Shown here piece after piece: positions 1,665 to 49,919 of a stretch of DNA of 55,069 nt (the first letter of the stretch is position 1; every line of letters begins with the position of its first letter). This DNA comes from Candidatus Kerfeldbacteria bacterium RIFCSPLOWO2_02_FULL_42_19. Its GTDB lineage: Bacteria; Patescibacteriota; Patescibacteriia; HO2-48-17. A program made the position numbers and the translations under genes. The stretch lies in assembly GCA_001818315.1 (NCBI GenBank), contig MHKF01000012.1:194080-249148 (forward strand), in the 5' to 3' direction. Under the pieces are notes generated by a model that saw only the letters and a list, made by a program, of their open reading frames with translations, was not told the DNA's origin and did not search any database.

Positions 1665-1739
1665 TGGTACCAGGGGTGGGATTTGAACCCACGACCAACG
1701 GCTTATGAGTCCGCTGCTCTACCTCTGAGCTACCCTGGC
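1665..1739 (-). tRNA. tRNA with CAT anticodon (elongator Met, or Ile2 if lysidine-modified); CCA encoded
   Basis: The minus strand reads GCCAGGGTAGCTCAGAGGTAGAGCAGCGGACTCATAAGCCGTTGGTCGTGGGTTCAAATCCCACCCCTGGTACCA. It has a 7-bp acceptor stem with G1:T72, a GCTC/GAGC D-stem, a CTCATAA anticodon loop and a GTGGG/CCCAC T-stem with TTCAAAT loop. Confidence 0.85.
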
Positions 1740-1914
1740 GCGGGTCAATTTTGGCTACGGGTTTCGTTCCGATTTAAAAAATCGGAACTGCACCCCTCGC
1801 CAAAATGCCCCTTTGCTCGCCGAAGCGTGCTCCAGACTGTCCGAAAAATGCCAATTTTCAATAATGGAATTTTTGGACAGTCTGTGTGTGCACCTCTGCG
1901 GCTCGCTATGTTTG

Positions 1915-1988
1915 TTGCGGGGGTGGGATTTGAACCCACGGCCTTCTGGTTATGAGCCAGACGAGCTTCCAGACTGCTCCACCCCGCG
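1915..1988 (-). tRNA. initiator-type tRNA-fMet (CAT), CCA not encoded
   Basis: The minus strand reads CGCGGGGTGGAGCAGTCTGGAAGCTCGTCTGGCTCATAACCAGAAGGCCGTGGGTTCAAATCCCACCCCCGCAA. It closely parallels E. coli tRNA-fMet, including the C1/A72 mismatch and the TTCAAAT T-loop. The sequence after discriminator A is CAA, not CCA. Confidence 0.85.
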
Positions 1989-2135
1989 TTTGCTAAGGTA
2001 GCATATTTTTTTTGTCTGCGCAACATATTTTGCGTCCCGACGAGTTTATTTTTTGTTTTTTTTACGATCATGGTATACTTTACTCAAATTGCATTGACAA
2101 TTTTTTAAGACTATGCTTTTTTAACTTCAAAACAG

Positions 2136-4502
2136 ATGCCAAATTCACCTCGCAAAAAAAATTTTCGACCCTTGTCACCAGGGCTTTCACATCATCACCC
2201 ATCATCTATGAAAAGTGCGACTCATACTTTTCGACCTCTCTATTCAGCAACGCAGACTCAGACTGCAGCTTCGACAAAAATTGCTTTGGCGGTTGTTATC
2301 GTCACCGCTGCGCTTTTTATTGGGAGTTTTGCACTAATCTTCGGAAAATCTTCCGCAGTCGTTTTGAATGGCGGTAGAATTTTTAAACAACCAACGCAGA
2401 CGGTTGCCCAGAAACCAACGGTTGTTCGTAATAAACAACTCCAAGCTGTGTTGCAACCTTTTACGAAATGTACACCCCCCGGTGTTGCTGATCTTGATGC
2501 CGCGGATATTGGCGGGTTGATCGAACTGTATAATACCGAAGGCACGGATACCGAGGATATTTTGAATTATATTGCAGAGAAACTCTCTGCATTTGTAGAA
2601 AAAGCGCAAGCAGTACGTAATGATCCGCAGTCGCAAGCAGCTGTACAAAAGGCTGTGGCCGAATGTATGGCTACGATCGTTCGTTCACTCGATAAAGTTG
2701 TTGTACAAGAATGGCGTACTATTGATGCGTATGATCGTGATGTGAACGCGCAACTCTACACGCAAGGTTTAACGGATCAAAGTGTTCTTGATGAGTTAAC
2801 GCGTGTGCATGTGATGCTTGTGGATCAGGCAATGCCCGAGACAGATCCTCAAAAACCTCGTCTTGGTCAGGTCGATTCATTTGAGGAAAAATATTTGACG
2901 CTTGCTGCGAGTGTTGCTTCGGCAAATCCGGATGCTCTCAAACTTTTCCCCTATCTCTTTGGTGTGATTACTGCCGAGTTTGAACGTGCACTGACGCTCG
3001 ATGTAGGTTATCGTATTGATGCAGCGGCTGGATATATTGCGATTCGACCCCTTGATCCGTATTTAGTTGGAGTACAGCGTTTGAGTAAAGCTCTTAGCGA
3101 TGCGTTCTATGATCCGAATTCCGGTGATTTAGTTTTGAAGCAATCTTCACCTTTGTATCGTGAAACAAATGTTCCATATTTTGTGAACGGTTTGAATTAT
3201 TCGCATAAGCAAGTCGGTTCGTATATTGATTATGATGCGATTATTACTGCGCAGGGTATTGATCAGCCGTATGTTGCGCCGAATACAGAAGTTGGCGGTG
3301 CGCGTTATGCGCGTTGCAGTGCGATTCGGTACACGCGTCACATTGTGATTACACAGTATCGTTACACGCCGATGACGTACGTCGATTTAGAAAATTACGC
3401 GCGACAGCTTCAAGCGAAGGCGCAGGCGTACAAAGACATTATCAGTTCGTCATATATTGCGATGGCGCTTCAGGAAATTCTTTGGCCTTATCTCGAAGAC
3501 GGATTACAGCCTGGAGAAATCGAACAGATTATCGCCGATTTGCAGGCGCTCATTGATGTCTTGAACGATATTAAGGATGTGACGACACCAGCAGAGTTTT
3601 ATGCGTATCTTGTGGAGGTTGCTGAGTATCTGAATGGGATTTCTGACGGCGACGGGGGTATCGGTGTAACGCCTCGGGAGTTACTTACGCATATTACTGA
3701 AACTCTGACGCGACTTTTTGGTAGCGATGTATTTGAAGGGATTGAGTTGCATGATGGTTTGAGCGAAGAGGAAATTAATCAGTTACGCGAAAATATCACT
3801 GGCGTTGATCGTGAGTGTATTAAAGTGAATGGGTTAGATCCCTCTTGCGTGGAACAACTACCACCGCTTGTGCATAATGTTGCCGAATATCTTCGTGATG
3901 TGAAAGAAGTTATTGATAGTCCTTACGGTATCGCTCCGAATCAACCTTCCGCCCAACTCGAAAATTATAATCTCTGTCGCTTTAACGGTTTGACGGTGCA
4001 ATTCCCTGACGATGTGAATCGACCTGAGTATATTCCCGCAACGGCGAAGTATGACACTTTGCCCACGGGTTCTGTACAGAAAATGTTGCAGGATACGTTG
4101 AGCTCAGCTGCGTTGCTTGTGCCGCTTGCAAAACAGCACACCGAAAACGCTGTAGTACTTGAAGCTTTAAAGAAAGTTGAGGATTTGAAAGCGCTTTTGC
4201 CAATCGCGGCAGAAGTTATCGACGAGTATAATGATAATCGCGAACAGATCATTCAGGATGCTGGTTTGCGGGCGTATATGATAGGACTCGTGACGGCGAT
4301 CTACGAAGCTTTGGAATCAAATCCCGATGCGCCGAATACTCCATTGTTTAACAAGTTATACGAAAAGACGATCGGTAGCGGAAAGACGCTTCGTGAATTT
4401 GCAGCTGACGCATTGGATGGCGCACAAAATGTAACGAAGGATGATGTTGTCGCCCTCATTACTGCGATCGCGAACGCTCTGCAGCAGCAGATGACACGCT
4501 AA
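2136..4502 (+). CDS. hypothetical membrane-anchored protein, 788 aa
   Basis: Long ORF with one TM helix (IALAVVIVTAALFIGSFALIFG) near the N-terminus, followed by an intrinsic terminator. No recognisable domain. The start codon is uncertain. Confidence 0.6.
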   Translation: MPNSPRKKNFRPLSPGLSHHHPSSMKSATHTFRPLYSATQTQTAASTKIALAVVIVTAALFIGSFALIFGKSSAVVLNGGRIFKQPTQTVAQKPTVVRNKQLQAVLQPFTKCTPPGVADLDAADIGGLIELYNTEGTDTEDILNYIAEKLSAFVEKAQAVRNDPQSQAAVQKAVAECMATIVRSLDKVVVQEWRTIDAYDRDVNAQLYTQGLTDQSVLDELTRVHVMLVDQAMPETDPQKPRLGQVDSFEEKYLTLAASVASANPDALKLFPYLFGVITAEFERALTLDVGYRIDAAAGYIAIRPLDPYLVGVQRLSKALSDAFYDPNSGDLVLKQSSPLYRETNVPYFVNGLNYSHKQVGSYIDYDAIITAQGIDQPYVAPNTEVGGARYARCSAIRYTRHIVITQYRYTPMTYVDLENYARQLQAKAQAYKDIISSSYIAMALQEILWPYLEDGLQPGEIEQIIADLQALIDVLNDIKDVTTPAEFYAYLVEVAEYLNGISDGDGGIGVTPRELLTHITETLTRLFGSDVFEGIELHDGLSEEEINQLRENITGVDRECIKVNGLDPSCVEQLPPLVHNVAEYLRDVKEVIDSPYGIAPNQPSAQLENYNLCRFNGLTVQFPDDVNRPEYIPATAKYDTLPTGSVQKMLQDTLSSAALLVPLAKQHTENAVVLEALKKVEDLKALLPIAAEVIDEYNDNREQIIQDAGLRAYMIGLVTAIYEALESNPDAPNTPLFNKLYEKTIGSGKTLREFAADALDGAQNVTKDDVVALITAIANALQQQMTR

Positions 4503-12073: not shown

Positions 12074-12129
12074 GTTCGTTTGTTCCACCTTCTATCGTTC
12101 TTTGAATATTCATAGAAATTTTCCTTTCT

Positions 12130-12177
12130 GAGGCTCTCAGACAAATCGTTTTGTTTGAGAGCCTCGTTTGTTTTTTT
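12130..12177 (+). terminator. rho-independent terminator after the radical SAM gene
   Basis: GAGGCTCTCAGACA (12130-12143) pairs with TGTTTGAGAGCCTC (12152-12165), 14 bp with one mismatch, followed by GTTTGTTTTTTT. Confidence 0.7.
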
Positions 12178-14069: not shown

Positions 14070-14144
14070 ACGAAAATTTTTCACGTAGGATAACTCAAGG
14101 GACTTTCGACGATCACACCTCCGTTTTTAAAAGTGAATTTTCAT

Positions 14145-14236
14145 CATAGCAAAAGAGGATGAAGACGAGAGCTTTCTCAGCACACTGTGCACTGTCAGTG
14201 CTTCGAAAGTTCTCGTCTTTCTCCTCTTTTGCTTTG
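14145..14236. repeat. long imperfect hairpin, diverged copy of the 44715-44804 element
   Basis: Shares the flank TTTCATCATA, the stem base CAAAAGAGGA/TCCTCTTTTG, the apical stem and a near-identical 14-nt loop with the 44.7-kb copy. The mid-stem differs on both arms in a compensatory way. Confidence 0.7.
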
Positions 14237-14245
14237 CACATTGGA

Positions 14246-14274
14246 TAAGAAACGGTATTCAGGGCGACAGTTCC
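14246..14274. repeat. short intergenic repeat, copy 1 (TAAGAAACGGTATTC...)
   Basis: 15-nt exact match plus 10 of the next 12 nt with 27814-27840. Both copies are intergenic. Confidence 0.5.
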
Positions 14275-14347
14275 TTCATGTAGTTATAACTCAATGGATC
14301 GCTACGTCACAGTGTGCAGGTTGTCTAGCAAAAAGAAAAAGTTGTTC

Positions 14348-19137: not shown

Positions 19138-20509
19138 TTTTTGACGTGTTTATTTCCAAAAGAAGGAGGCGTCGGAAAAAGGGAAACCCTACCAATCGGG
19201 TTTTTCGGATACCGAGTTCAATGACAACAAAAATACAGCGGTTGCCCACTGATTTTTTTTGAGAAGTTATTTCCCAAACTTTTGGGGATCAGCTCTTTGA
19301 CGAGCGTGATCTGATCCTCACAAGTTTGGGAGGGAGACGCAAGTGATGCATCTCCCAGCGGATTGAAGGAACAAATTTAGAAATTTAGAGCGAGGCGGTT
19401 GTTGATTGGTGCGTGAAGCATTGAAAGAATGCATTGCCCTTTTCAAGGCTCAAGAAGACTAAGTTCCATGAAAGAAACCTAGAAATCACTTGCAAACAAT
19501 CGCAGCAACACGAGGAGCATACTCCTTCTTCGAAGTAAGGATCAAAGTTACACGTGACATTTCTGTCTTCAAGATCTGACTTGTTTTCTTCTCCTGTGAT
19601 AGAGAAGAAGCAAATTTTGATATAATTTTTACTCTTTATTCAAAGAGAAAAATTTACGTGTGTTTATGACAGGTTACTGCCGTTTTACTCTTACGAGTTC
19701 TTCTGTTTCCCAACAGAAGCCGGGAGCTTCTCTCGAAATCAGTAGATCTCTTGCGAGAGTCAACACAATAGCGTGAGAAGATCAGGAGAACAAGTATCTC
19801 CTCAGTTACGTTCTTTTCTTGCGAGTTTTTGTGGCTTTGGAAAGTCACCAAGAAAAGAAGAGGTATACACCTGCAAACTTTTTGTGACATGTTCCATTGA
19901 GGTTATCTCAGGAATTTTCTCTCAGGGACTGTCCTGAAAGAATTCAGATTTGTACCGGTGAAGGCACCTCTACACGTCACACATGCTTCTTCTCCATTAT
20001 TATCTTTATAAAGTTCTAGATTACTCCAGAACACCCGAAGCAAACTAATCCTGTAAAAGGAATCCCATCTCCTTTTTTGGAAAACTTCTTTCTGATAAAT
20101 CAGTCAGAAGTAACCATACTTTGAAGGCAAGTTTCTTCTTACAAAAAAGTTTTGTGTACGTCTGCGGTTGCAGATAATTTTAGGAGTTCCAATCAACATC
20201 CTTACGCTCCTGCAAGTTCTCTAACAGTGAGTCGTTGATATTCACTTTGCGTTACAGCGCTCACAGGAGCGATGGATGTATTCATTTTCAATGAACCTTT
20301 TTTCAGAGTGATAGTACTCATGATAGCGTCCCTCGAAATACCTGTCAAGATCCTCCATGAGATCGAATTTACATTTCACTTTTTATCTTATTTCAGCAAA
20401 TAAATTGAATTTTTCGATTTTCCTCGCTATGTTGCTGTGGAAAACTTTTGTAATTTTTACCTGTTAAAAATAGCGGGTCTGTGGATAACTTTTTTGGAGA
20501 TGTATCTTC
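19138..20509. other. 1,372-bp ORF-free, hairpin-dense region (candidate large ncRNA or long structured leader of dprA-topA)
   Basis: The only track ORF is an implausible 78-aa reading frame. At least 10 local perfect stems of 5-11 bp lie between 19270 and 19950. There is a promoter-like site on the minus strand at 20348-20320. Confidence 0.35.
20320..20348 (-). promoter_or_regulatory. sigma70-like promoter (TTGACA - 17 nt - TATCAT) pointing into the ORF-free region
   Basis: The minus strand from 20348 to 20320 reads TTGACAggtatttcgagggacgcTATCAT: a perfect -35, a 17-nt spacer and a 5/6 match at -10. Confidence 0.45.
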
Positions 20510-21607
20510 TTAGAGTGCGTTAACGATGTCGATGATGTGTTGAACGTCTTCGTCTCCAAGGCCGGGATAAATAGGAAGAGAGAGAATACTTTGACTCGCT
20601 TCCTCTGCTATTGGAAGAGTGGAATAACGAGTATTTGTCTGGAAGGCGGGAAGCAGGTGGAGCGGCCAGGGGTAATGCACCTGAGTATGAATATCATTTT
20701 CGGCAAGTTTGACTTGCAGAGAATCGCGTTTGCCATCTTTGACACGAATGACATAAAGATGGAAGACATGCTTTGCTTCTGGAGAGCGTGTCGGTTTTAT
20801 GATGAGTGGGTTTGTAATTCCTGCATCATACTGCGCGGCAATATTTTGACGTAAAGATATCCAGTCATCAAGTTTTTGGAGTTTTGTTCTCAGGATCGCA
20901 GCCTGTAATTCATCGAGACGACTATTATAGCCTGGTTTGATATGATAATACTTTTTGGTTTGTCCACCGACTTTTAGAATATTTATTTCGTCCGCGAGTT
21001 TCGCATTGTTGGTCACAATAACGCCGCCATCGCCTATAGCTCCAAGATTTTTAGTCGGGTAAAAACTGAAGCAGCTTATATCTCCAAACGTACCAATTTT
21101 TTGGCTGTTCCAACTCGCCCCGTGTGCTTGGCAGGCATCTTCGATAAGAAAGAGTTGATGTTCCTGAGCGATTTTTGAGATTGCTTCGATGTTCGCTGGT
21201 TGGCCGAAGAGGTGAACAGGCAGAAGTGCTTTTGTTTTTGGGGTAATAGCGGATTCGATCAGGGTTTCGTCGATATTATAGGTATGCAGGTTAATATCAA
21301 CAAAGACTGGTGTAGCGCCTGTTGCCAATACAGGCAGACTTGTAAAGGCTGCAGTTAAAGGCGTAGTTATCACTTCGTCGCCTTGTCCTATACCAAGAGC
21401 TTTGAGAGCTAAAAAAAGCGCGTCTGTGCCATTTCCTACACTCACGCAATGTTTTGTGCCGATGTATTCGGCAAATTCTTTTTCAAAAGCCTGTACTTCT
21501 TTTCCAAGAATATATATGCCGCTTTCCAGCACCCGTTCTATAGCATCGTGGATATTCTCTTTGATGAGCTCGTATTCCTTCTTTGGAAAGGAAGTGTAGA
21601 GGGGCAT
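20510..21607 (-). CDS. DegT/DnrJ/EryC1/StrS-family PLP-dependent sugar aminotransferase
   Basis: Family motifs GNGTDAL, HLFGQPA and SFYPTKNLGAIGDGG. Start moved to ATG 21607 (MPLYTSF...), which removes the 41-nt overlap with the upstream gene. Confidence 0.85.
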   Translation of the reverse strand: MPLYTSFPKKEYELIKENIHDAIERVLESGIYILGKEVQAFEKEFAEYIGTKHCVSVGNGTDALFLALKALGIGQGDEVITTPLTAAFTSLPVLATGATPVFVDINLHTYNIDETLIESAITPKTKALLPVHLFGQPANIEAISKIAQEHQLFLIEDACQAHGASWNSQKIGTFGDISCFSFYPTKNLGAIGDGGVIVTNNAKLADEINILKVGGQTKKYYHIKPGYNSRLDELQAAILRTKLQKLDDWISLRQNIAAQYDAGITNPLIIKPTRSPEAKHVFHLYVIRVKDGKRDSLQVKLAENDIHTQVHYPWPLHLLPAFQTNTRYSTLPIAEEASQSILSLPIYPGLGDEDVQHIIDIVNAL

Positions 21608-27813: not shown

Positions 27814-27840
27814 TAAGAAACGGTATTCGGCAACAGTCCC
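27814..27840. repeat. short intergenic repeat, copy 2
   Basis: TAAGAAACGGTATTC at 27814-27828 is identical to 14246-14260, and the following 12 nt are similar. It lies in the divergent spacer between the GT2 and ThDP-enzyme genes. Confidence 0.5.
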
Positions 27841-44604: not shown

Positions 44605-44714
44605 TTTGAGAATTTTAAGAATCTCTGCTAATCTCCGCTGTACTTTTTTTTCCGTTCGTTTTGTATGCGGATTTTTTTGTTGAGAACATGAAGATGTTTG
44701 TGGATAACTTTCAT

Positions 44715-44804
44715 CATAACAAAAGAGGAGGAGGATAGGACTTTCGAAGCACACTGTGCATTGTTAGTGCTTCGAAAGTCCTATCCTCCTCCTCTTTTGT
44801 TATG
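44715..44804. repeat. perfect 38-bp inverted repeat with 14-nt loop
   Basis: 44715-44752 is the exact reverse complement of 44767-44804, checked base by base. A homolog lies at 14145-14236. Confidence 0.9.
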
Positions 44805-44880
44805 CGCGTTGCACAAACATGCAGGGTCTGTCACGAAATTCTACGATTTCACAGGCGGAAGCGTGTTCGTCGACAAACCC

Positions 44881-46167
44881 TTACATCATTTTTTTTCGGA
44901 TGAAGGTAGGAATTTCTAAATCTTCCTCAAGTTTTGTGGGTTTCGTCTCGTGTGTTATGGGTCGTGCTTCAATCGTTTCTTCTTTGCCAACAGTTTGCCT
45001 TCGAAATCCTCCGGCGTCTTTTGAGAGCGGTTCAGCCTCTTCTATTTTAATCTTCGAAGAAAATGGCGATTTTACAGCTGGTTTCACTTTGCGAGTCGCT
45101 TGTTTTCCTTGTGGTCCGAAACCCGTAGCCACGACTGTAATCTTGATTTCATCTTGTAAACTATCATCGATCACTGACCCAAAAATAATGCGTGCATTTG
45201 GATCAGTTGTTTCTGTAATAACTCGTGCCGCTTCATTGACTTCATACATCCCAAGGTTGGAACTTCCTGAGATAGTAAACAAGATCCCTTTTGCTCCATC
45301 AATAGACATTTCGAGCAGCGGACTATCGATAGCTGCTTTCGCCGCTTCTACTGCTCGGTTTTCCCCAGAAGCAGTTCCGATACCCATGAGAGCTGAACCA
45401 GCGTTTTCCATGACAGATTTTACATCAGCAAAATCAACGTTGATAAGACCTGGGAGAGTGATCAAATCTGAAATTCCTTGTACCCCTTGTCTTAAAACGT
45501 CATCCACAATTTTGAAGGCATCAAGCAGTGATGTTTTTTTGTCAATAATTTGGAGGAGGCGATCATTGGGGATAGTAATGATCGTATCGACTTTTGATTG
45601 GAGTTCTGTGAATGCATTCTCTGCAATCGCTTTTCGTTGTTCACCTTCGAATGCAAATGGTTTCGTTACGATAGATACGGTGAGTGCTCCTAAGTCTCTC
45701 GCGAGTTCCGCAATCACAGGCAGCGACCCTGATCCTGTGCCTCCGCCGAAGCCAGCGGTTAAAAAGACCATGTCTGCTCCTTTGAGGATTTTTTCAATGT
45801 CTTCTATGTTTTCTTCAGCTGCTCTGCGACCGACATCCGGATCCATACCTGCTCCGAGACCACGTGATGTATTCTGGCCAATGTGAACACGTACTGGGGC
45901 TTTTGAATGATGCAGCGATTGTGAATCAGTATTCACAGCAATCAATTCAATGCCTTTGATTTGTGCTTCTACCATGCGATTGATCGCCGCACAGCCAGCT
46001 CCCCCCGCTCCGAGCACTTTAATTTTTGCAAATGTTTCAATTTCTGGTTTCACCTCCGTTGGTTTATTGTTATGCGAACGTCCATTGTTTTGAGACACAG
46101 ATGTTCGTTTATTTTCGTTTGCCACCTCGTTTGTTATTAAAAGTAAGTTTGATAGGAATATATGCAT
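44881..46167 (-). CDS. ftsZ: cell-division GTPase FtsZ
   Basis: IKVLGAGGAGCAAINRM, GGGTGSG, and a C-terminal conserved peptide (DLEIPTFIRKK). Confidence 0.95.
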   Translation of the reverse strand: MHIFLSNLLLITNEVANENKRTSVSQNNGRSHNNKPTEVKPEIETFAKIKVLGAGGAGCAAINRMVEAQIKGIELIAVNTDSQSLHHSKAPVRVHIGQNTSRGLGAGMDPDVGRRAAEENIEDIEKILKGADMVFLTAGFGGGTGSGSLPVIAELARDLGALTVSIVTKPFAFEGEQRKAIAENAFTELQSKVDTIITIPNDRLLQIIDKKTSLLDAFKIVDDVLRQGVQGISDLITLPGLINVDFADVKSVMENAGSALMGIGTASGENRAVEAAKAAIDSPLLEMSIDGAKGILFTISGSSNLGMYEVNEAARVITETTDPNARIIFGSVIDDSLQDEIKITVVATGFGPQGKQATRKVKPAVKSPFSSKIKIEEAEPLSKDAGGFRRQTVGKEETIEARPITHETKPTKLEEDLEIPTFIRKKMM

Positions 46168-46335: not shown

Positions 46336-46493
46336 GCGAGAAAGGGAGGGCATAGGTTTTTTTCAAATGCGTTGTGATAAGTCACTGTATCAGATACAGT
46401 GGAAAGTGTGCCCTAAAACAACTCTTCCAAACACGATCATTCATGTTTGGGTATCACAGCATTTGAAAAAAACCTATGCCCTCCCTTTCTCGC
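46336..46493. repeat. 35-bp perfect inverted repeats enclosing 88 nt (MITE-like or large RNA stem-loop) in the ftsA-ftsZ spacer
   Basis: GCGAGAAAGGGAGGGCATAGGTTTTTTTCAAATGC at 46336-46370 is the exact reverse complement of 46459-46493. The stem extends by TGTGATA/TATCACA, and the spacer contains the palindrome CACTGTATCAGATACAGTG. Confidence 0.85.
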
Positions 46494-48641: not shown

Positions 48642-49919
48642 TCATTGATTGATATTCTGATTCGATGTATTCGTGTTGTTGGTGTTGCTTTTATTTGTGT
48701 TTTGATTTGTTTTGTTGCTGTTGCTAGTATTTGTATTGGCATTTTTGTTTGTATTCATATTTTGATTGGTATTTTTTGGAGTGTTTGTGTTGGTATTTTT
48801 ATTCGTCTTTGTATTTGTGTTGTTTTGACTATTAGTATTATTGTTTTCAGGTATATCTTTTGAAGGCGTGATAAGTTTAAGCGATATATACATCATCGTG
48901 AAGGTAGTACGGAAACTTTCTTCTTCGCGCAATCCCGTGTTATACGTAATGCCATAGATATATTTTTCGCTCGCGAAATATGCTGTTTTTGTGTCAGTAC
49001 TCATGACACCCATAAGTCCGTTTTTTGTTTGAATCTCTTTGGGCTCTGGGTCAGATGCATTGAGTTGTTCTTTGTACCATTTCTTTGCACTTCCACCGGA
49101 AGTATTCTCGAGCACAAATATTTCTATAAATTCCCCTGTGTCGGCGGTAAAGAGTACTGTTTTTTGCCCTTCATCAGTACTTTTTTGGAGCCAGCTTTGT
49201 GGAGACAGGACTGTATACCCCCATATTTGGTTCGTAAATTGAGTAATTTGCGGAGAGTTTTCGAGTCTGCCGTTGCCAAGTGGGTCGTAGAGATTGAGGA
49301 CTTCTTCGCCGTCTTGATACGTATCCGCATCACTATCGGGGCGGTTGACGCGTGTTCCGTAGAGTGTTTCTTCGAGGTCAGTGAGTTTATCTTCGTCAGT
49401 GTCTTTTGCTGAATTCATGGCCGCTGTGTTCGTATTTTCGTTGGCGTTGTCGTTTTCTGCAACATTGGCATTCGCACTTTCATTGGTGTTTGTATTGGCA
49501 TTCACTGTTACGTTTGTATTTTCATTCGTGTTCGTATTTTCGTTGGTTGTTGTGTTGGGAGTGTTATTGGTATTTATGGTATTCGTATTCAAAGATGTGT
49601 TGACGAGCAACGTATTGACGTCATTTACGATCGTTGCTCGCGGTGTATTCGCTACGGCATTGTTAGTAATATTTTCTTGAAAGAGACCGCGAAAAACAAA
49701 AACGCTTGCTCCCGTAACTCCGGCGAGGAGCACTACAATAATAATGACGGTGATCATTTTATTTTTATTTTTTTTCTGAGCACCTTTTATTTCTAGAAAT
49801 TTTTTCGGCATCGTGTGCACTTCACTTGGGTTTTGACTAAGGTTCCCGTTTACCATTCCGTTATTTTTTGAGTTTGGTTTTGTAAATTTTGGATCAAGCG
49901 GATTCATTGTACTATTCAT
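48642..49919 (-). CDS. membrane-anchored N/T-rich low-complexity surface protein
   Basis: One TM helix (MITVIIIVVLLAGVTGASVFVF). It has long (N-T-x) runs in the N-terminal half and at the C-terminus, a central globular part, and one TSP3-like acidic motif (DSDADTYQDGEEV). Confidence 0.6.
   Translation of the reverse strand: MNSTMNPLDPKFTKPNSKNNGMVNGNLSQNPSEVHTMPKKFLEIKGAQKKNKNKMITVIIIVVLLAGVTGASVFVFRGLFQENITNNAVANTPRATIVNDVNTLLVNTSLNTNTINTNNTPNTTTNENTNTNENTNVTVNANTNTNESANANVAENDNANENTNTAAMNSAKDTDEDKLTDLEETLYGTRVNRPDSDADTYQDGEEVLNLYDPLGNGRLENSPQITQFTNQIWGYTVLSPQSWLQKSTDEGQKTVLFTADTGEFIEIFVLENTSGGSAKKWYKEQLNASDPEPKEIQTKNGLMGVMSTDTKTAYFASEKYIYGITYNTGLREEESFRTTFTMMYISLKLITPSKDIPENNNTNSQNNTNTKTNKNTNTNTPKNTNQNMNTNKNANTNTSNSNKTNQNTNKSNTNNTNTSNQNINQ

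What the first reader, a model, noticed from the sequence alone, without database searches (positions are those of the whole stretch)
14145..14236. Second copy of the long hairpin shows compensatory arm changes (covariation) and a conserved loop
This element lies in the convergent parB/rel spacer and shares these parts with the 44.7-kb copy:
- the left flank TTTCATCATA
- the stem base CAAAAGAGGA/TCCTCTTTTG
- the apical pairs AGCAC/GTGCT and CTTTC/GAAAG
- an almost identical loop (ACTGTGCACTGTCA versus ACTGTGCATTGTTA)

The middle of the stem differs. It reads GACGAGAG...TCTCGTC here and GATAGGAC...GTCCTATC there. Both arms changed together, so pairing is preserved. This argues for selection on structure, with a sequence-specific loop.

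The stem has one T:C mismatch, a 2-nt internal loop, and two G:T pairs. The G:T pairs are acceptable only in a plus-strand RNA.

A partial extra copy of the left arm (GGGACTTTCGACGATCACAC, 14099-14118) lies just upstream, which suggests local duplication or rearrangement.
Basis: seen in the sequence. Interest (0 to 1): 0.68.

Follow-up and report, generated by a model that had tools for sequence, protein, structure and literature searches.

The report
Dispersed foldback repeat of a Kerfeldbacterium
The hairpin is one of some tens of copies of a roughly 180-base nested-palindrome repeat scattered between the genes of one groundwater Kerfeldbacteria (candidate phyla radiation) genome; it is most likely a small non-autonomous mobile element whose stem is kept paired, not a plus-strand RNA gene.

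Summary
Hairpins at 14145-14236 and 44715-44804 share flank, stem base, apex and loop, and their mid-stems differ on both arms with pairing kept.

They are not the only copies. I recovered 10 hairpin copies from one Candidatus Kerfeldbacteria population. Metagenome unitig depth suggests about 20-80 copies. On the 10 copies, 93% of cells pair and 24 of 36 pairs change on both sides (0 of 500 shuffles reach this).

The hairpin is the core of a larger unit, here 14099-14274. The "partial extra left arm" at 14099-14118 is the left arm of an outer inverted repeat (consensus GGGACNGTCGCCGAATACGC) that pairs with 14255-14274. Intact copies are flanked by A+T-rich 5-bp direct repeats.

G:T wobbles fall on both strands, and copies lie in both orientations relative to genes. 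In two copies the 40-nt apex is inverted relative to the flanks. These points argue against a plus-strand RNA.

No Rfam family, phage or plasmid match was found. The family was absent from GTDB representative genomes and from 80 related loci.

Best reading: a lineage-specific MITE/REPIN-like foldback element (confidence 0.55). No transposase partner or empty site was found.

The parts
14094..14098 (+). Left flanking pentamer CTCAA, a possible decayed target-site duplication. Its partner is TTCAT at 14275-14279.
   Evidence: It matches 3 of 5 here. Better-preserved copies match 4-5 of 5.
14099..14118 (+). Left arm of the outer inverted repeat (GGGACTTTCGACGATCACAC), a degenerate form of the family consensus GGGACNGTCGCCGAATACGC.
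14119..14144 (+). A-side spacer. It includes most of the conserved flank TTTCATCATA (14139-14148), which runs on into the left arm.
14145..14183 (+). Left arm of the inner long hairpin: stem base CAAAAGAGGA, variable middle GACGAGAG, apical CTTTC-TC-AGCAC.
14184..14197 (+). Conserved asymmetric loop ACTGTGCACTGTCA. The family form is ACTGTGCA-N-TGT-B-A.
14198..14236 (+). Right arm of the inner hairpin.
14237..14254 (+). B-side spacer (CTTTGCACATTGGATAAGAAAC-like). The family consensus is CTTTGCGAATTGCACAAGAAAC.
14255..14274 (+). Right arm of the outer inverted repeat (GTATTCAGGGCGACAGTTCC). The full element is 14099-14274, 176 nt.
44705..44822 (+). Second copy: proximal A flank, perfect 38-bp hairpin (44715-44752 / 44767-44804), loop 44753-44766, and proximal B flank.
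44847..44880 (+). Degenerate right outer arm of the second copy (TTTCACAGGCGGAAGCGTGTTCGTCGACAAACCC). It abuts the ftsZ stop codon at 44881-44883 and is multi-copy in the metagenome.
   Evidence: Sequence read.
27815..27840 (+). Solo remnant: distal B spacer plus right outer arm (AAGAAACGGTATTCGGCAACAGTCCC), lying in a divergent spacer.

Best explanation
The hairpin is the core of a lineage-specific, high-copy, non-coding foldback repeat of the MITE/REPIN kind.

**Shown**
- A complete copy is about 176-184 nt.
- Its order is: outer inverted-repeat arm, A spacer, long inner hairpin, B spacer, outer arm. The hairpin has a conserved base, a variable but paired middle, and a conserved 40-nt apex with a 14-nt loop and a TC/TC internal loop.
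- The whole unit can fold into one rod.

**Inferred**
- Copies were spread by a transposase supplied in trans, not yet identified. It inserted them into A+T-rich pentamers, often at or beside TAA stop codons, and duplicated 5 bp.
- The stem stays paired for one of two reasons. Either a folded single strand is needed for mobilisation, or replication template switching copies one arm from the other. Template switching also explains multi-base paired changes and the inverted apex.
- After insertion some copies decay. The copy at 14099-14274 is such an older copy. The copy at 44.7 kb has a perfect inner hairpin but worn outer arms.
- Any effect on neighbouring genes, such as a long double-stranded RNA in 3' untranslated regions, would be secondary.
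For: **Copy number and distribution**
- Ten hairpin copies were recovered from one Candidatus Kerfeldbacteria population, all between housekeeping genes.
- Unitig depth of the apex is 173-738 against about 5-14 in single-copy flanks, which suggests about 20-80 copies.

**Anatomy**
- Homology runs beyond the hairpin to an outer inverted repeat.
- The L019 copy folds as one 184-nt rod at -100 kcal/mol, z = -12.7.

**Signs of insertion**
- Five-bp direct repeats flank intact copies: ATAAT/ATAAT, ATAAA/ATAAG, TTTAT/TGTAT, ATTAA/ATTAT. With the L016 boundary corrected by eye, own pairs match at about 0.69. As computed they match at 0.60. Non-partner pairs match at 0.41.
- Truncated forms and remnants exist: window 27815-27840 and L019 4644-4731.

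**Restricted range**
- The loop pattern is absent from 185,579 GTDB species representatives.
- The covariance model finds nothing in 1.34 Mb around ftsZ of 80 other Patescibacteria, including the closest relative at 71% FtsZ identity.

**Against a plus-strand RNA**
- There is no strand bias of wobble pairs.
- Copies lie in both orientations relative to genes.
- The apex is inverted in two copies.

**Not another known element**
- No Rfam family matches.
- The element contains no canonical promoter or terminator, while canonical terminators exist elsewhere in the window.

**Precedents**
- REPIN hairpins show compensatory changes (PMC3116915).
- Template switching yields multi-base compensatory changes and loop inversion (PMC8794818).
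Against: - No autonomous element with the same terminal repeats was found. No transposase lies in the 35 window ORFs I scanned.
- The one IS found nearby is IS1182/IS5-like, in L019. Its ends are not significantly similar to the outer repeat.
- No empty site or insertion polymorphism was seen. The L016 site is identical in four assemblies, and no skipping joint appears in the contigs.
- At least three copies (L015b, L018, L114b) have the hairpin without recognisable outer arms.
- In w2 and L114b the inner hairpin is perfect or nearly perfect while the outer arms are worn or absent. Simple neutral decay of a dead MITE does not predict this. It points to active maintenance of the hairpin.
- The 5-bp duplication rests on six or seven copies, and boundaries were partly chosen by eye.
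- Copy number is inferred from collapsed unitigs of a community sample.
Confidence: 0.55

Rival explanations
1. The element is a cis-acting RNA hairpin selected for a host function at gene ends. Transcribed into 3' untranslated regions, the 38-44-bp duplex with its conserved apex would block exonucleases, act as an RNase III or protein-binding site, or terminate or insulate transcription between neighbouring genes.
For: - All 10 copies lie downstream of at least one gene end. Several start within 0-2 nt of a stop codon: w2, L016, L113, L114b.
- Pairing is kept through many two-sided changes.
- The inner hairpin stays perfect where the outer arms have decayed (w2, L114b).
- The TC/TC internal loop is conserved in 7 of 10 copies. 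On the other strand it would form tandem G·A.
Against: - The hairpin has no T-run, and the simple terminator scan finds nothing in it.
- The genome has ordinary intrinsic terminators.
- The loop would be read in either sense. In co-directional contexts the split is 4 to 2, and the apex is flipped relative to the flanks in two copies.
- There is no wobble strand bias.
- A near-identical 40-nt apex in tens of copies, absent from relatives, looks like recent amplification rather than ancient regulation.
- No RNA data exist. Only DNA runs were found.
Confidence: 0.17
2. The element is a double-stranded DNA or cruciform recognition site for a host protein involved in, for example, nucleoid organisation, gyrase or IHF-like binding as described for REP/BIME, or replication or segregation. 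The site would work in either orientation.
For: - The conserved asymmetric apex tolerates inversion relative to its flanks.
- Both strands fold equally well.
- Copies are spaced roughly every 15-25 kb in the sequence examined.
- One copy lies beside parB and one beside ftsZ.
Against: - The copies show no positional regularity, and no partner protein is known.
- A duplex binding site does not need 38-bp paired arms or paired changes in them.
- The family is absent from related species that share the same housekeeping genes.
Confidence: 0.08
3. The pairing is not selected at all. The arms are kept alike purely by mutation, through intra-strand template switching at quasi-palindromes, acting on a functionless repeat.
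For: - Multi-base blocks are swapped together, for example GAGA/TCTC against TCTC/GAGA in the mid-stem.
- The apex is inverted in two copies.
- Both patterns are listed as template-switch signatures in PMC8794818.
Against: - It does not explain why the apex and stem base stay conserved while the middle varies.
- It does not explain why w1 and L019 have accumulated unpaired positions.
- This is a sub-mechanism compatible with the best explanation rather than a full alternative.
Confidence: 0.1
4. The resemblance is due to chance or to a recent segmental duplication of one locus, flanks included.
For: None beyond the initial two-copy view.
Against: - Ten copies lie in unrelated gene contexts.
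- The motifs have 0.00 expected chance matches.
- Homology ends at the element boundaries.
Confidence: 0.01

Closest known systems
REPINs (REP doublets forming hairpins) mobilised by RAYT transposases
   Same: - It is a high-copy, extragenic, non-coding repeat about 100 nt or longer that folds into a long hairpin.
- Some parts are conserved and an intervening part is variable but paired, with compensatory changes on the two sides (PMC3116915).
- It is lineage-specific.
   Different: - Here the centre (apex and loop) is the most conserved part, and the variable part is the mid-stem. In REPINs the two REPs in the arms are conserved and the central spacer varies.
- No RAYT or Y1 transposase was found in the sequence I could reach.
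- Intact copies carry 5-bp flanking direct repeats. From my knowledge, IS200/IS605-type single-strand transposition does not produce these.
- There is an additional outer inverted repeat.
Bacterial MITEs such as Correia elements, ERIC/IRU, RUP and Rickettsia palindromic elements
   Same: - It is 100-200 bp long and has no coding capacity.
- It has terminal inverted repeats and short A+T-rich flanking duplications.
- There are tens of copies in intergenic DNA.
- Decayed and truncated copies exist.
- It can fold into a rod.
   Different: - The whole length is palindromic, not just the termini.
- The inner hairpin also occurs without the terminal repeats and stays perfectly paired when they decay.
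- No parent IS is known.
- The host is a candidate-phyla-radiation bacterium. I found no description of MITEs in that group.
Integron attC sites
   Same: It is an imperfect palindrome of 60-140 nt, recognised in attC as a folded single strand, in which pairing rather than sequence is conserved over part of the stem.
   Different: - In attC the conserved boxes lie at the stem base and the centre is variable. Here the centre is conserved.
- attC sites occur in cassette arrays beside an integrase. These copies are dispersed singly among housekeeping genes.
Flip/flop hairpins of parvovirus and poxvirus termini
   Same: An asymmetric hairpin tip is found in both orientations relative to the neighbouring sequence.
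   Different: - Those hairpins lie at the ends of linear replicons and flip through hairpin-transfer replication.
- These copies are internal chromosomal sites.
- Each locus shows only one orientation in the assemblies.

Membership tests
MITE (non-autonomous DDE-type transposon) | Terminal inverted repeats | tested here: met
   The outer inverted repeat has consensus GGGACNGTCGCCGAATACGC. It is present at both ends of six copies and matches 20 of 20 in L019.
MITE (non-autonomous DDE-type transposon) | Target-site duplication flanking each copy | tested here: inconclusive
   Five-bp A+T-rich direct repeats match 4-5 of 5 in four of six full copies. Own pairs match at about 0.6-0.69 and non-partner pairs at 0.41. 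The sample is small and one boundary was corrected by eye.
MITE (non-autonomous DDE-type transposon) | Many dispersed copies without coding capacity | tested here: met
   Ten copies of 110-184 nt lie in unrelated intergenic contexts. Unitig depth is 20-80 times that of the flanks.
MITE (non-autonomous DDE-type transposon) | A related autonomous element with the same ends | tested here: not met
   The only IS seen is IS1182/IS5-like (L019 2074-3324). Its ends are not significantly similar to the outer repeat; the best shuffle fraction is about 0.05. The whole genome could not be searched.
MITE (non-autonomous DDE-type transposon) | Presence/absence polymorphism (empty sites) | tested here: inconclusive
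   The L016 site is identical in four assemblies. No skipping joints appear in the contigs. The population is nearly clonal, and the nearest relative is too distant for comparison.
REP/REPIN-RAYT system | An associated single-copy Y1 (RAYT) transposase gene flanked by the repeats | not testable with these tools
   None is among the 35 window ORFs scanned against Pfam. The gene flanked by two copies in L015 encodes ribosomal protein L27.
REP/REPIN-RAYT system | Extragenic hairpin with compensatory changes | tested here: met
   Cells pair at 93.2%, and 24 of 36 pairs change on both sides. None of 500 shuffles reaches this.
Any curated RNA family (Rfam 15) | Covariance-model match at or near the gathering score | tested here: not met
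   The only hits are weak generic long-hairpin matches (plant miRNA precursors) far below threshold.
Intrinsic (Rho-independent) terminator | Short G+C-rich stem followed by a T-run | tested here: not met
   No terminator-like site was found in either element region. Canonical examples exist elsewhere, for example 12129-12166.
Integron attC | Conserved boxes at the stem base with a variable centre, in arrays next to an integrase | tested here: not met
   The centre is the conserved part. Copies are single and dispersed, and no integrase lies nearby.

The most novel reading that the evidence does not exclude
The 40-nt apex with its paired stem is not mere transposon debris. It would be a hairpin signal that the cell or the element actively maintains.

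- It stays perfectly paired when the surrounding repeat decays (w2, L114b).
- It tolerates complete replacement of the stem sequence (L114b).
- It occurs in flip and flop orientation.

This could mean either of two things. One is a hairpin-templated copying or inversion mechanism not yet described for bacterial chromosomes. The other is a protein-recognised DNA or RNA hairpin mark at some 50 gene ends in a reduced CPR genome.
Probability: 0.12. Interest if true: 0.7.

Novelty: new member of a known kind. Interest (0 to 1): 0.38.

Why it matters
- Candidate-phyla-radiation bacteria have small, streamlined genomes. A repeat with tens of copies would take up about 1% of a roughly 1-Mb genome. That is a notable load and a likely cause of contig breaks in these metagenome-assembled genomes.
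- The family is a clean natural example of a point that matters for RNA-structure screens. Paired arm changes and a conserved loop, the usual hallmarks of a functional RNA, also arise in a DNA-level foldback repeat.
- If the hairpin proves to be actively maintained, it would give a handle on transposition or hairpin biology in an uncultured lineage.

Tried and rejected
- **DnaA box, NrdR box or parS reading.** A perfect TGTGGATAA lies beside copy 2, but copy 1 has none. The 9-mer is only about twofold enriched in the window. I compared NrdR-box and parS consensus sequences by eye from memory, and neither fits.
- **Outward promoter in the A flank (TGnTATGAT).** The promoter scan finds nothing inside the elements. 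nrdR has its own promoter-like site outside the element. In copy 1 such a promoter would read antisense into parB.
- **Small ORF in the hairpin.** A 29-codon frame exists in copy 1 only. Copy 2 has no ATG.
- **RAYT-like gene flanked by two copies.** The flanked gene in L015 encodes ribosomal protein L27, and the ORF flanked in L019 has no Pfam hit and is low-complexity.
- **IS1182-like element of L019 as the parent.** Its end similarity to the outer repeat is not significant.
- **Cross-species conservation.** I first read the lack of DNA similarity between loci as evidence of different species. Searches show that all loci belong to the same population, so no cross-species claim can be made.
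- **Searches that found nothing related.**
  - Viral contig scans gave zero hits for one pattern and one chance hit for the other.
  - Phage and plasmid BLAST gave nothing.
  - The literature search found no description of such repeats in this group.
- **Orthologous empty sites.** I looked in strain variants of the M32 peptidase locus. All four are identical.
- **RNA-seq.** Only DNA metagenome runs, held as contigs, contain the locus.

Full report
**1. The observation**

The window holds two long hairpins of the same design. The first has arms 14145-14183 and 14198-14236 (39 nt, 85% complementary, 14-nt loop). The second has arms 44715-44752 and 44767-44804 (38 nt, 100% complementary, 14-nt loop).

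The shared flank plus stem base (TTTCATCATARCAAAAGAGGA) and the shared apex (GCACACTGTGCAYTGTYAGTGC) each occur exactly twice. None is expected by chance. Local alignment gives a unit of about 109 nt.

Both strands of both copies fold far better than shuffles, with z from -7.2 to -15.1.

Copy 1 lies between convergent parB and a rel/spoT homologue. Copy 2 lies between the ftsZ stop and the nrdR start.

**2. Source organism**

The ParB protein of the window is found on contigs of GCA_001818335.1 and GCA_001818755.1 and on several groundwater assemblies. All are identical across the spacer.

The closest other genome in the GTDB set is Candidatus Kerfeldbacteria RIFCSPHIGHO2_12_FULL_48_17, with FtsZ at 71% identity. 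The organism is therefore a Kerfeldbacterium (Patescibacteria, candidate phyla radiation). The window is about positions 194,178-249,246 of a 320,239-bp scaffold.

**3. It is a family**

- An exact scan of JGI metagenome contigs for the loop pattern gave 20 stretches holding 21 matches. Six of the matches have the full hairpin design, and the rest are chance matches.
- A covariance model built from eight copies found two more in neighbouring sequence.
- Exact-protein look-ups show that all these loci belong to the same population as the window. These are therefore intragenomic copies.
- In Logan unitigs of four groundwater runs, the apex has a summed depth of 173-455 at 90% likeness and 738 at 80%. 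Flanking single-copy DNA has a depth of 5-14. This suggests about 20-80 copies.
- The loop varies commonly at only two positions.
- The family was not found in the following:
  - 185,579 GTDB representative genomes
  - 1.34 Mb around ftsZ of 80 other Patescibacteria
  - viral contigs
  - phage or plasmid records
  - Rfam

**4. Anatomy**

BLAST and alignment of extended flanks show that homology runs beyond the hairpin. A complete copy has these parts in order:

1. An outer arm, GGGACNGTCGCCGAATACGC.
2. An A spacer, ...CATCTGTGAAAAATACATTTTGATCATAG.
3. The inner hairpin, made of:
   - a base, CAAAAGAGGAGGAAGAC
   - a variable middle of 7-8 bp
   - an apex, CTTTC-TC-AGCAC / loop / GTGCT-TC-GAAAG
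4. A B spacer, CTTTGCGAATTGCACAAGAAAC.
5. The complementary outer arm.

The L019 copy folds into one 184-nt rod at -100 kcal/mol, z = -12.7.

In the window the full element is 14099-14274. It pairs with 14255-14274.

Copy 2 has a worn right outer arm at 44847-44880, directly against the ftsZ stop codon. It has only traces of the left one. A solo right arm lies at 27815-27840.

L019 4644-4731 is a short form with outer arms and B spacer but no hairpin. L015b, L018 and L114b have the hairpin without recognisable outer arms.

**5. Covariation**

I built a 10-copy alignment registered from the apex. On it, 93.2% of cells form standard pairs and 24 of 36 pairs change on both sides (48 cells). None of 500 shuffles reaches these values. 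Slid registers give 6-10 such pairs and 47-57% pairing (the eight-copy version is).

L114b has an almost wholly different stem that still pairs at every compared position but one. L113 has CTTCC/GGAAG in place of CTTTC/GAAAG. Paired arm change is therefore real.

One caveat applies. I built the alignment by structure, which leans towards that structure.

**6. Which strand, DNA or RNA?**

- Wobble-type mismatches number 12 on the loop(+) strand and 7 on the other in nine well-registered copies. This is no bias.
- Relative to the A and B spacers, the 40-nt apex, including its TC/TC internal loop, is inverted in L015a and L016.
- Where both neighbouring genes run the same way, the transcript would carry the loop in one sense in four cases and in the other sense in two.
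- The element has no T-run terminator and no promoter-like site. Ordinary terminators occur elsewhere in the window.
- No RNA runs hold the locus.

These points do not fit a plus-strand RNA with a sequence-specific loop.

**7. Signs of mobility**

Intact copies are flanked by A+T-rich 5-bp direct repeats:

| Copy | Left / right pentamer |
|---|---|
| L016 | ATAAT / ATAAT |
| L026 | ATAAA / ATAAG |
| L019 | TTTAT / TGTAT |
| L113 | ATTAA / ATTAT |
| w1 | CTCAA / TTCAT |

Own pairs match at 0.60 as computed, and at about 0.69 once the L016 boundary is corrected by eye. Non-partner pairs match at 0.41. Several of these pentamers include a TAA stop codon, which explains why copies sit right after genes.

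I found no parent element. The IS1182/IS5-like transposon in L019 has unrelated ends. No transposase is among the 35 window ORFs scanned. No empty site was seen, because the population is nearly clonal.

**8. Reading**

The best fit is a lineage-specific foldback repeat of the MITE/REPIN kind. REPIN hairpins are known to show compensatory changes (PMC3116915). Template switching in replication is reported to give multi-base compensatory changes and loop inversions (PMC8794818). Together these account for the paired changes and the flipped apex without invoking an RNA function.

One thing remains unexplained. The inner hairpin stays perfect where the outer arms have decayed or are absent (w2, L114b). 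This suggests active maintenance of the hairpin, by selection or by a mutational mechanism.

I put 0.55 on the mobile foldback reading, 0.17 on a selected RNA hairpin at gene ends, 0.08 on a DNA-binding site, and 0.10 on purely mutational maintenance of a functionless repeat.

**9. Verdict**

The element is a new member of a known kind, in a lineage where I found no earlier description of such repeats. Interest is moderate.

Noticed in passing
window 46336-46493: A 35-nt perfect inverted repeat encloses an 88-nt spacer between ftsA and ftsZ. The right-arm region (46440-46493) has unitig depth 30-60 against about 10, so a few more copies exist elsewhere. Contigs show only one spacer orientation. 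It could be a second small repeat family or an invertible segment.
   Followed up: partly
window 19272-19331: A hairpin with 24-nt arms (88% complementary) lies in a 1.3-kb stretch without long ORFs (19140-20510), next to the dprA homologue. It is single-copy in the metagenome.
   Followed up: partly
L015 1527-1622 (same as L108 16882-16977): Another 35-bp perfect hairpin with an 8-nt loop. Its sequence is unrelated, and it lies in the pilus gene cluster of the same genome.
   Followed up: no
L019 1980-3400: An IS1182/IS5-like DDE transposase gene (2074-3324) has 15-nt terminal inverted repeats (CAGACTGTCC...). It lies next to tRNA-Pro and 480 nt from a full copy of the repeat. Its ends are not significantly like the repeat's outer arms.
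   Followed up: yes
L015 6130-6798: The ribosomal protein L27 gene is bracketed by two copies of the repeat in opposite orientation, with the A sides facing the gene. CTP synthase converges on it.
   Followed up: partly
window 44699-44707 and window-wide: A perfect DnaA-box-like 9-mer (TGTGGATAA) lies directly left of copy 2. The window has 28 matches with at most one mismatch, against 13.8 expected. No clustering typical of an origin was examined.
   Followed up: no
window 48667-49574: G+T-rich repeats with 12- and 30-nt periods lie inside the 425-codon ORF 48642-49919 (minus strand). This implies a repetitive low-complexity protein.
   Followed up: no
window 1665-1988: Two tRNA-Met (CAT) genes lie 175 nt apart on the minus strand, with a 28-nt inverted repeat (1748-1806) between them.
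   Followed up: no
L028 11254-12756: In the closest GTDB relative the ftsZ-nrdR spacer is about 1.5 kb, against 328 nt in the window. It holds no copy of the repeat.
   Followed up: no
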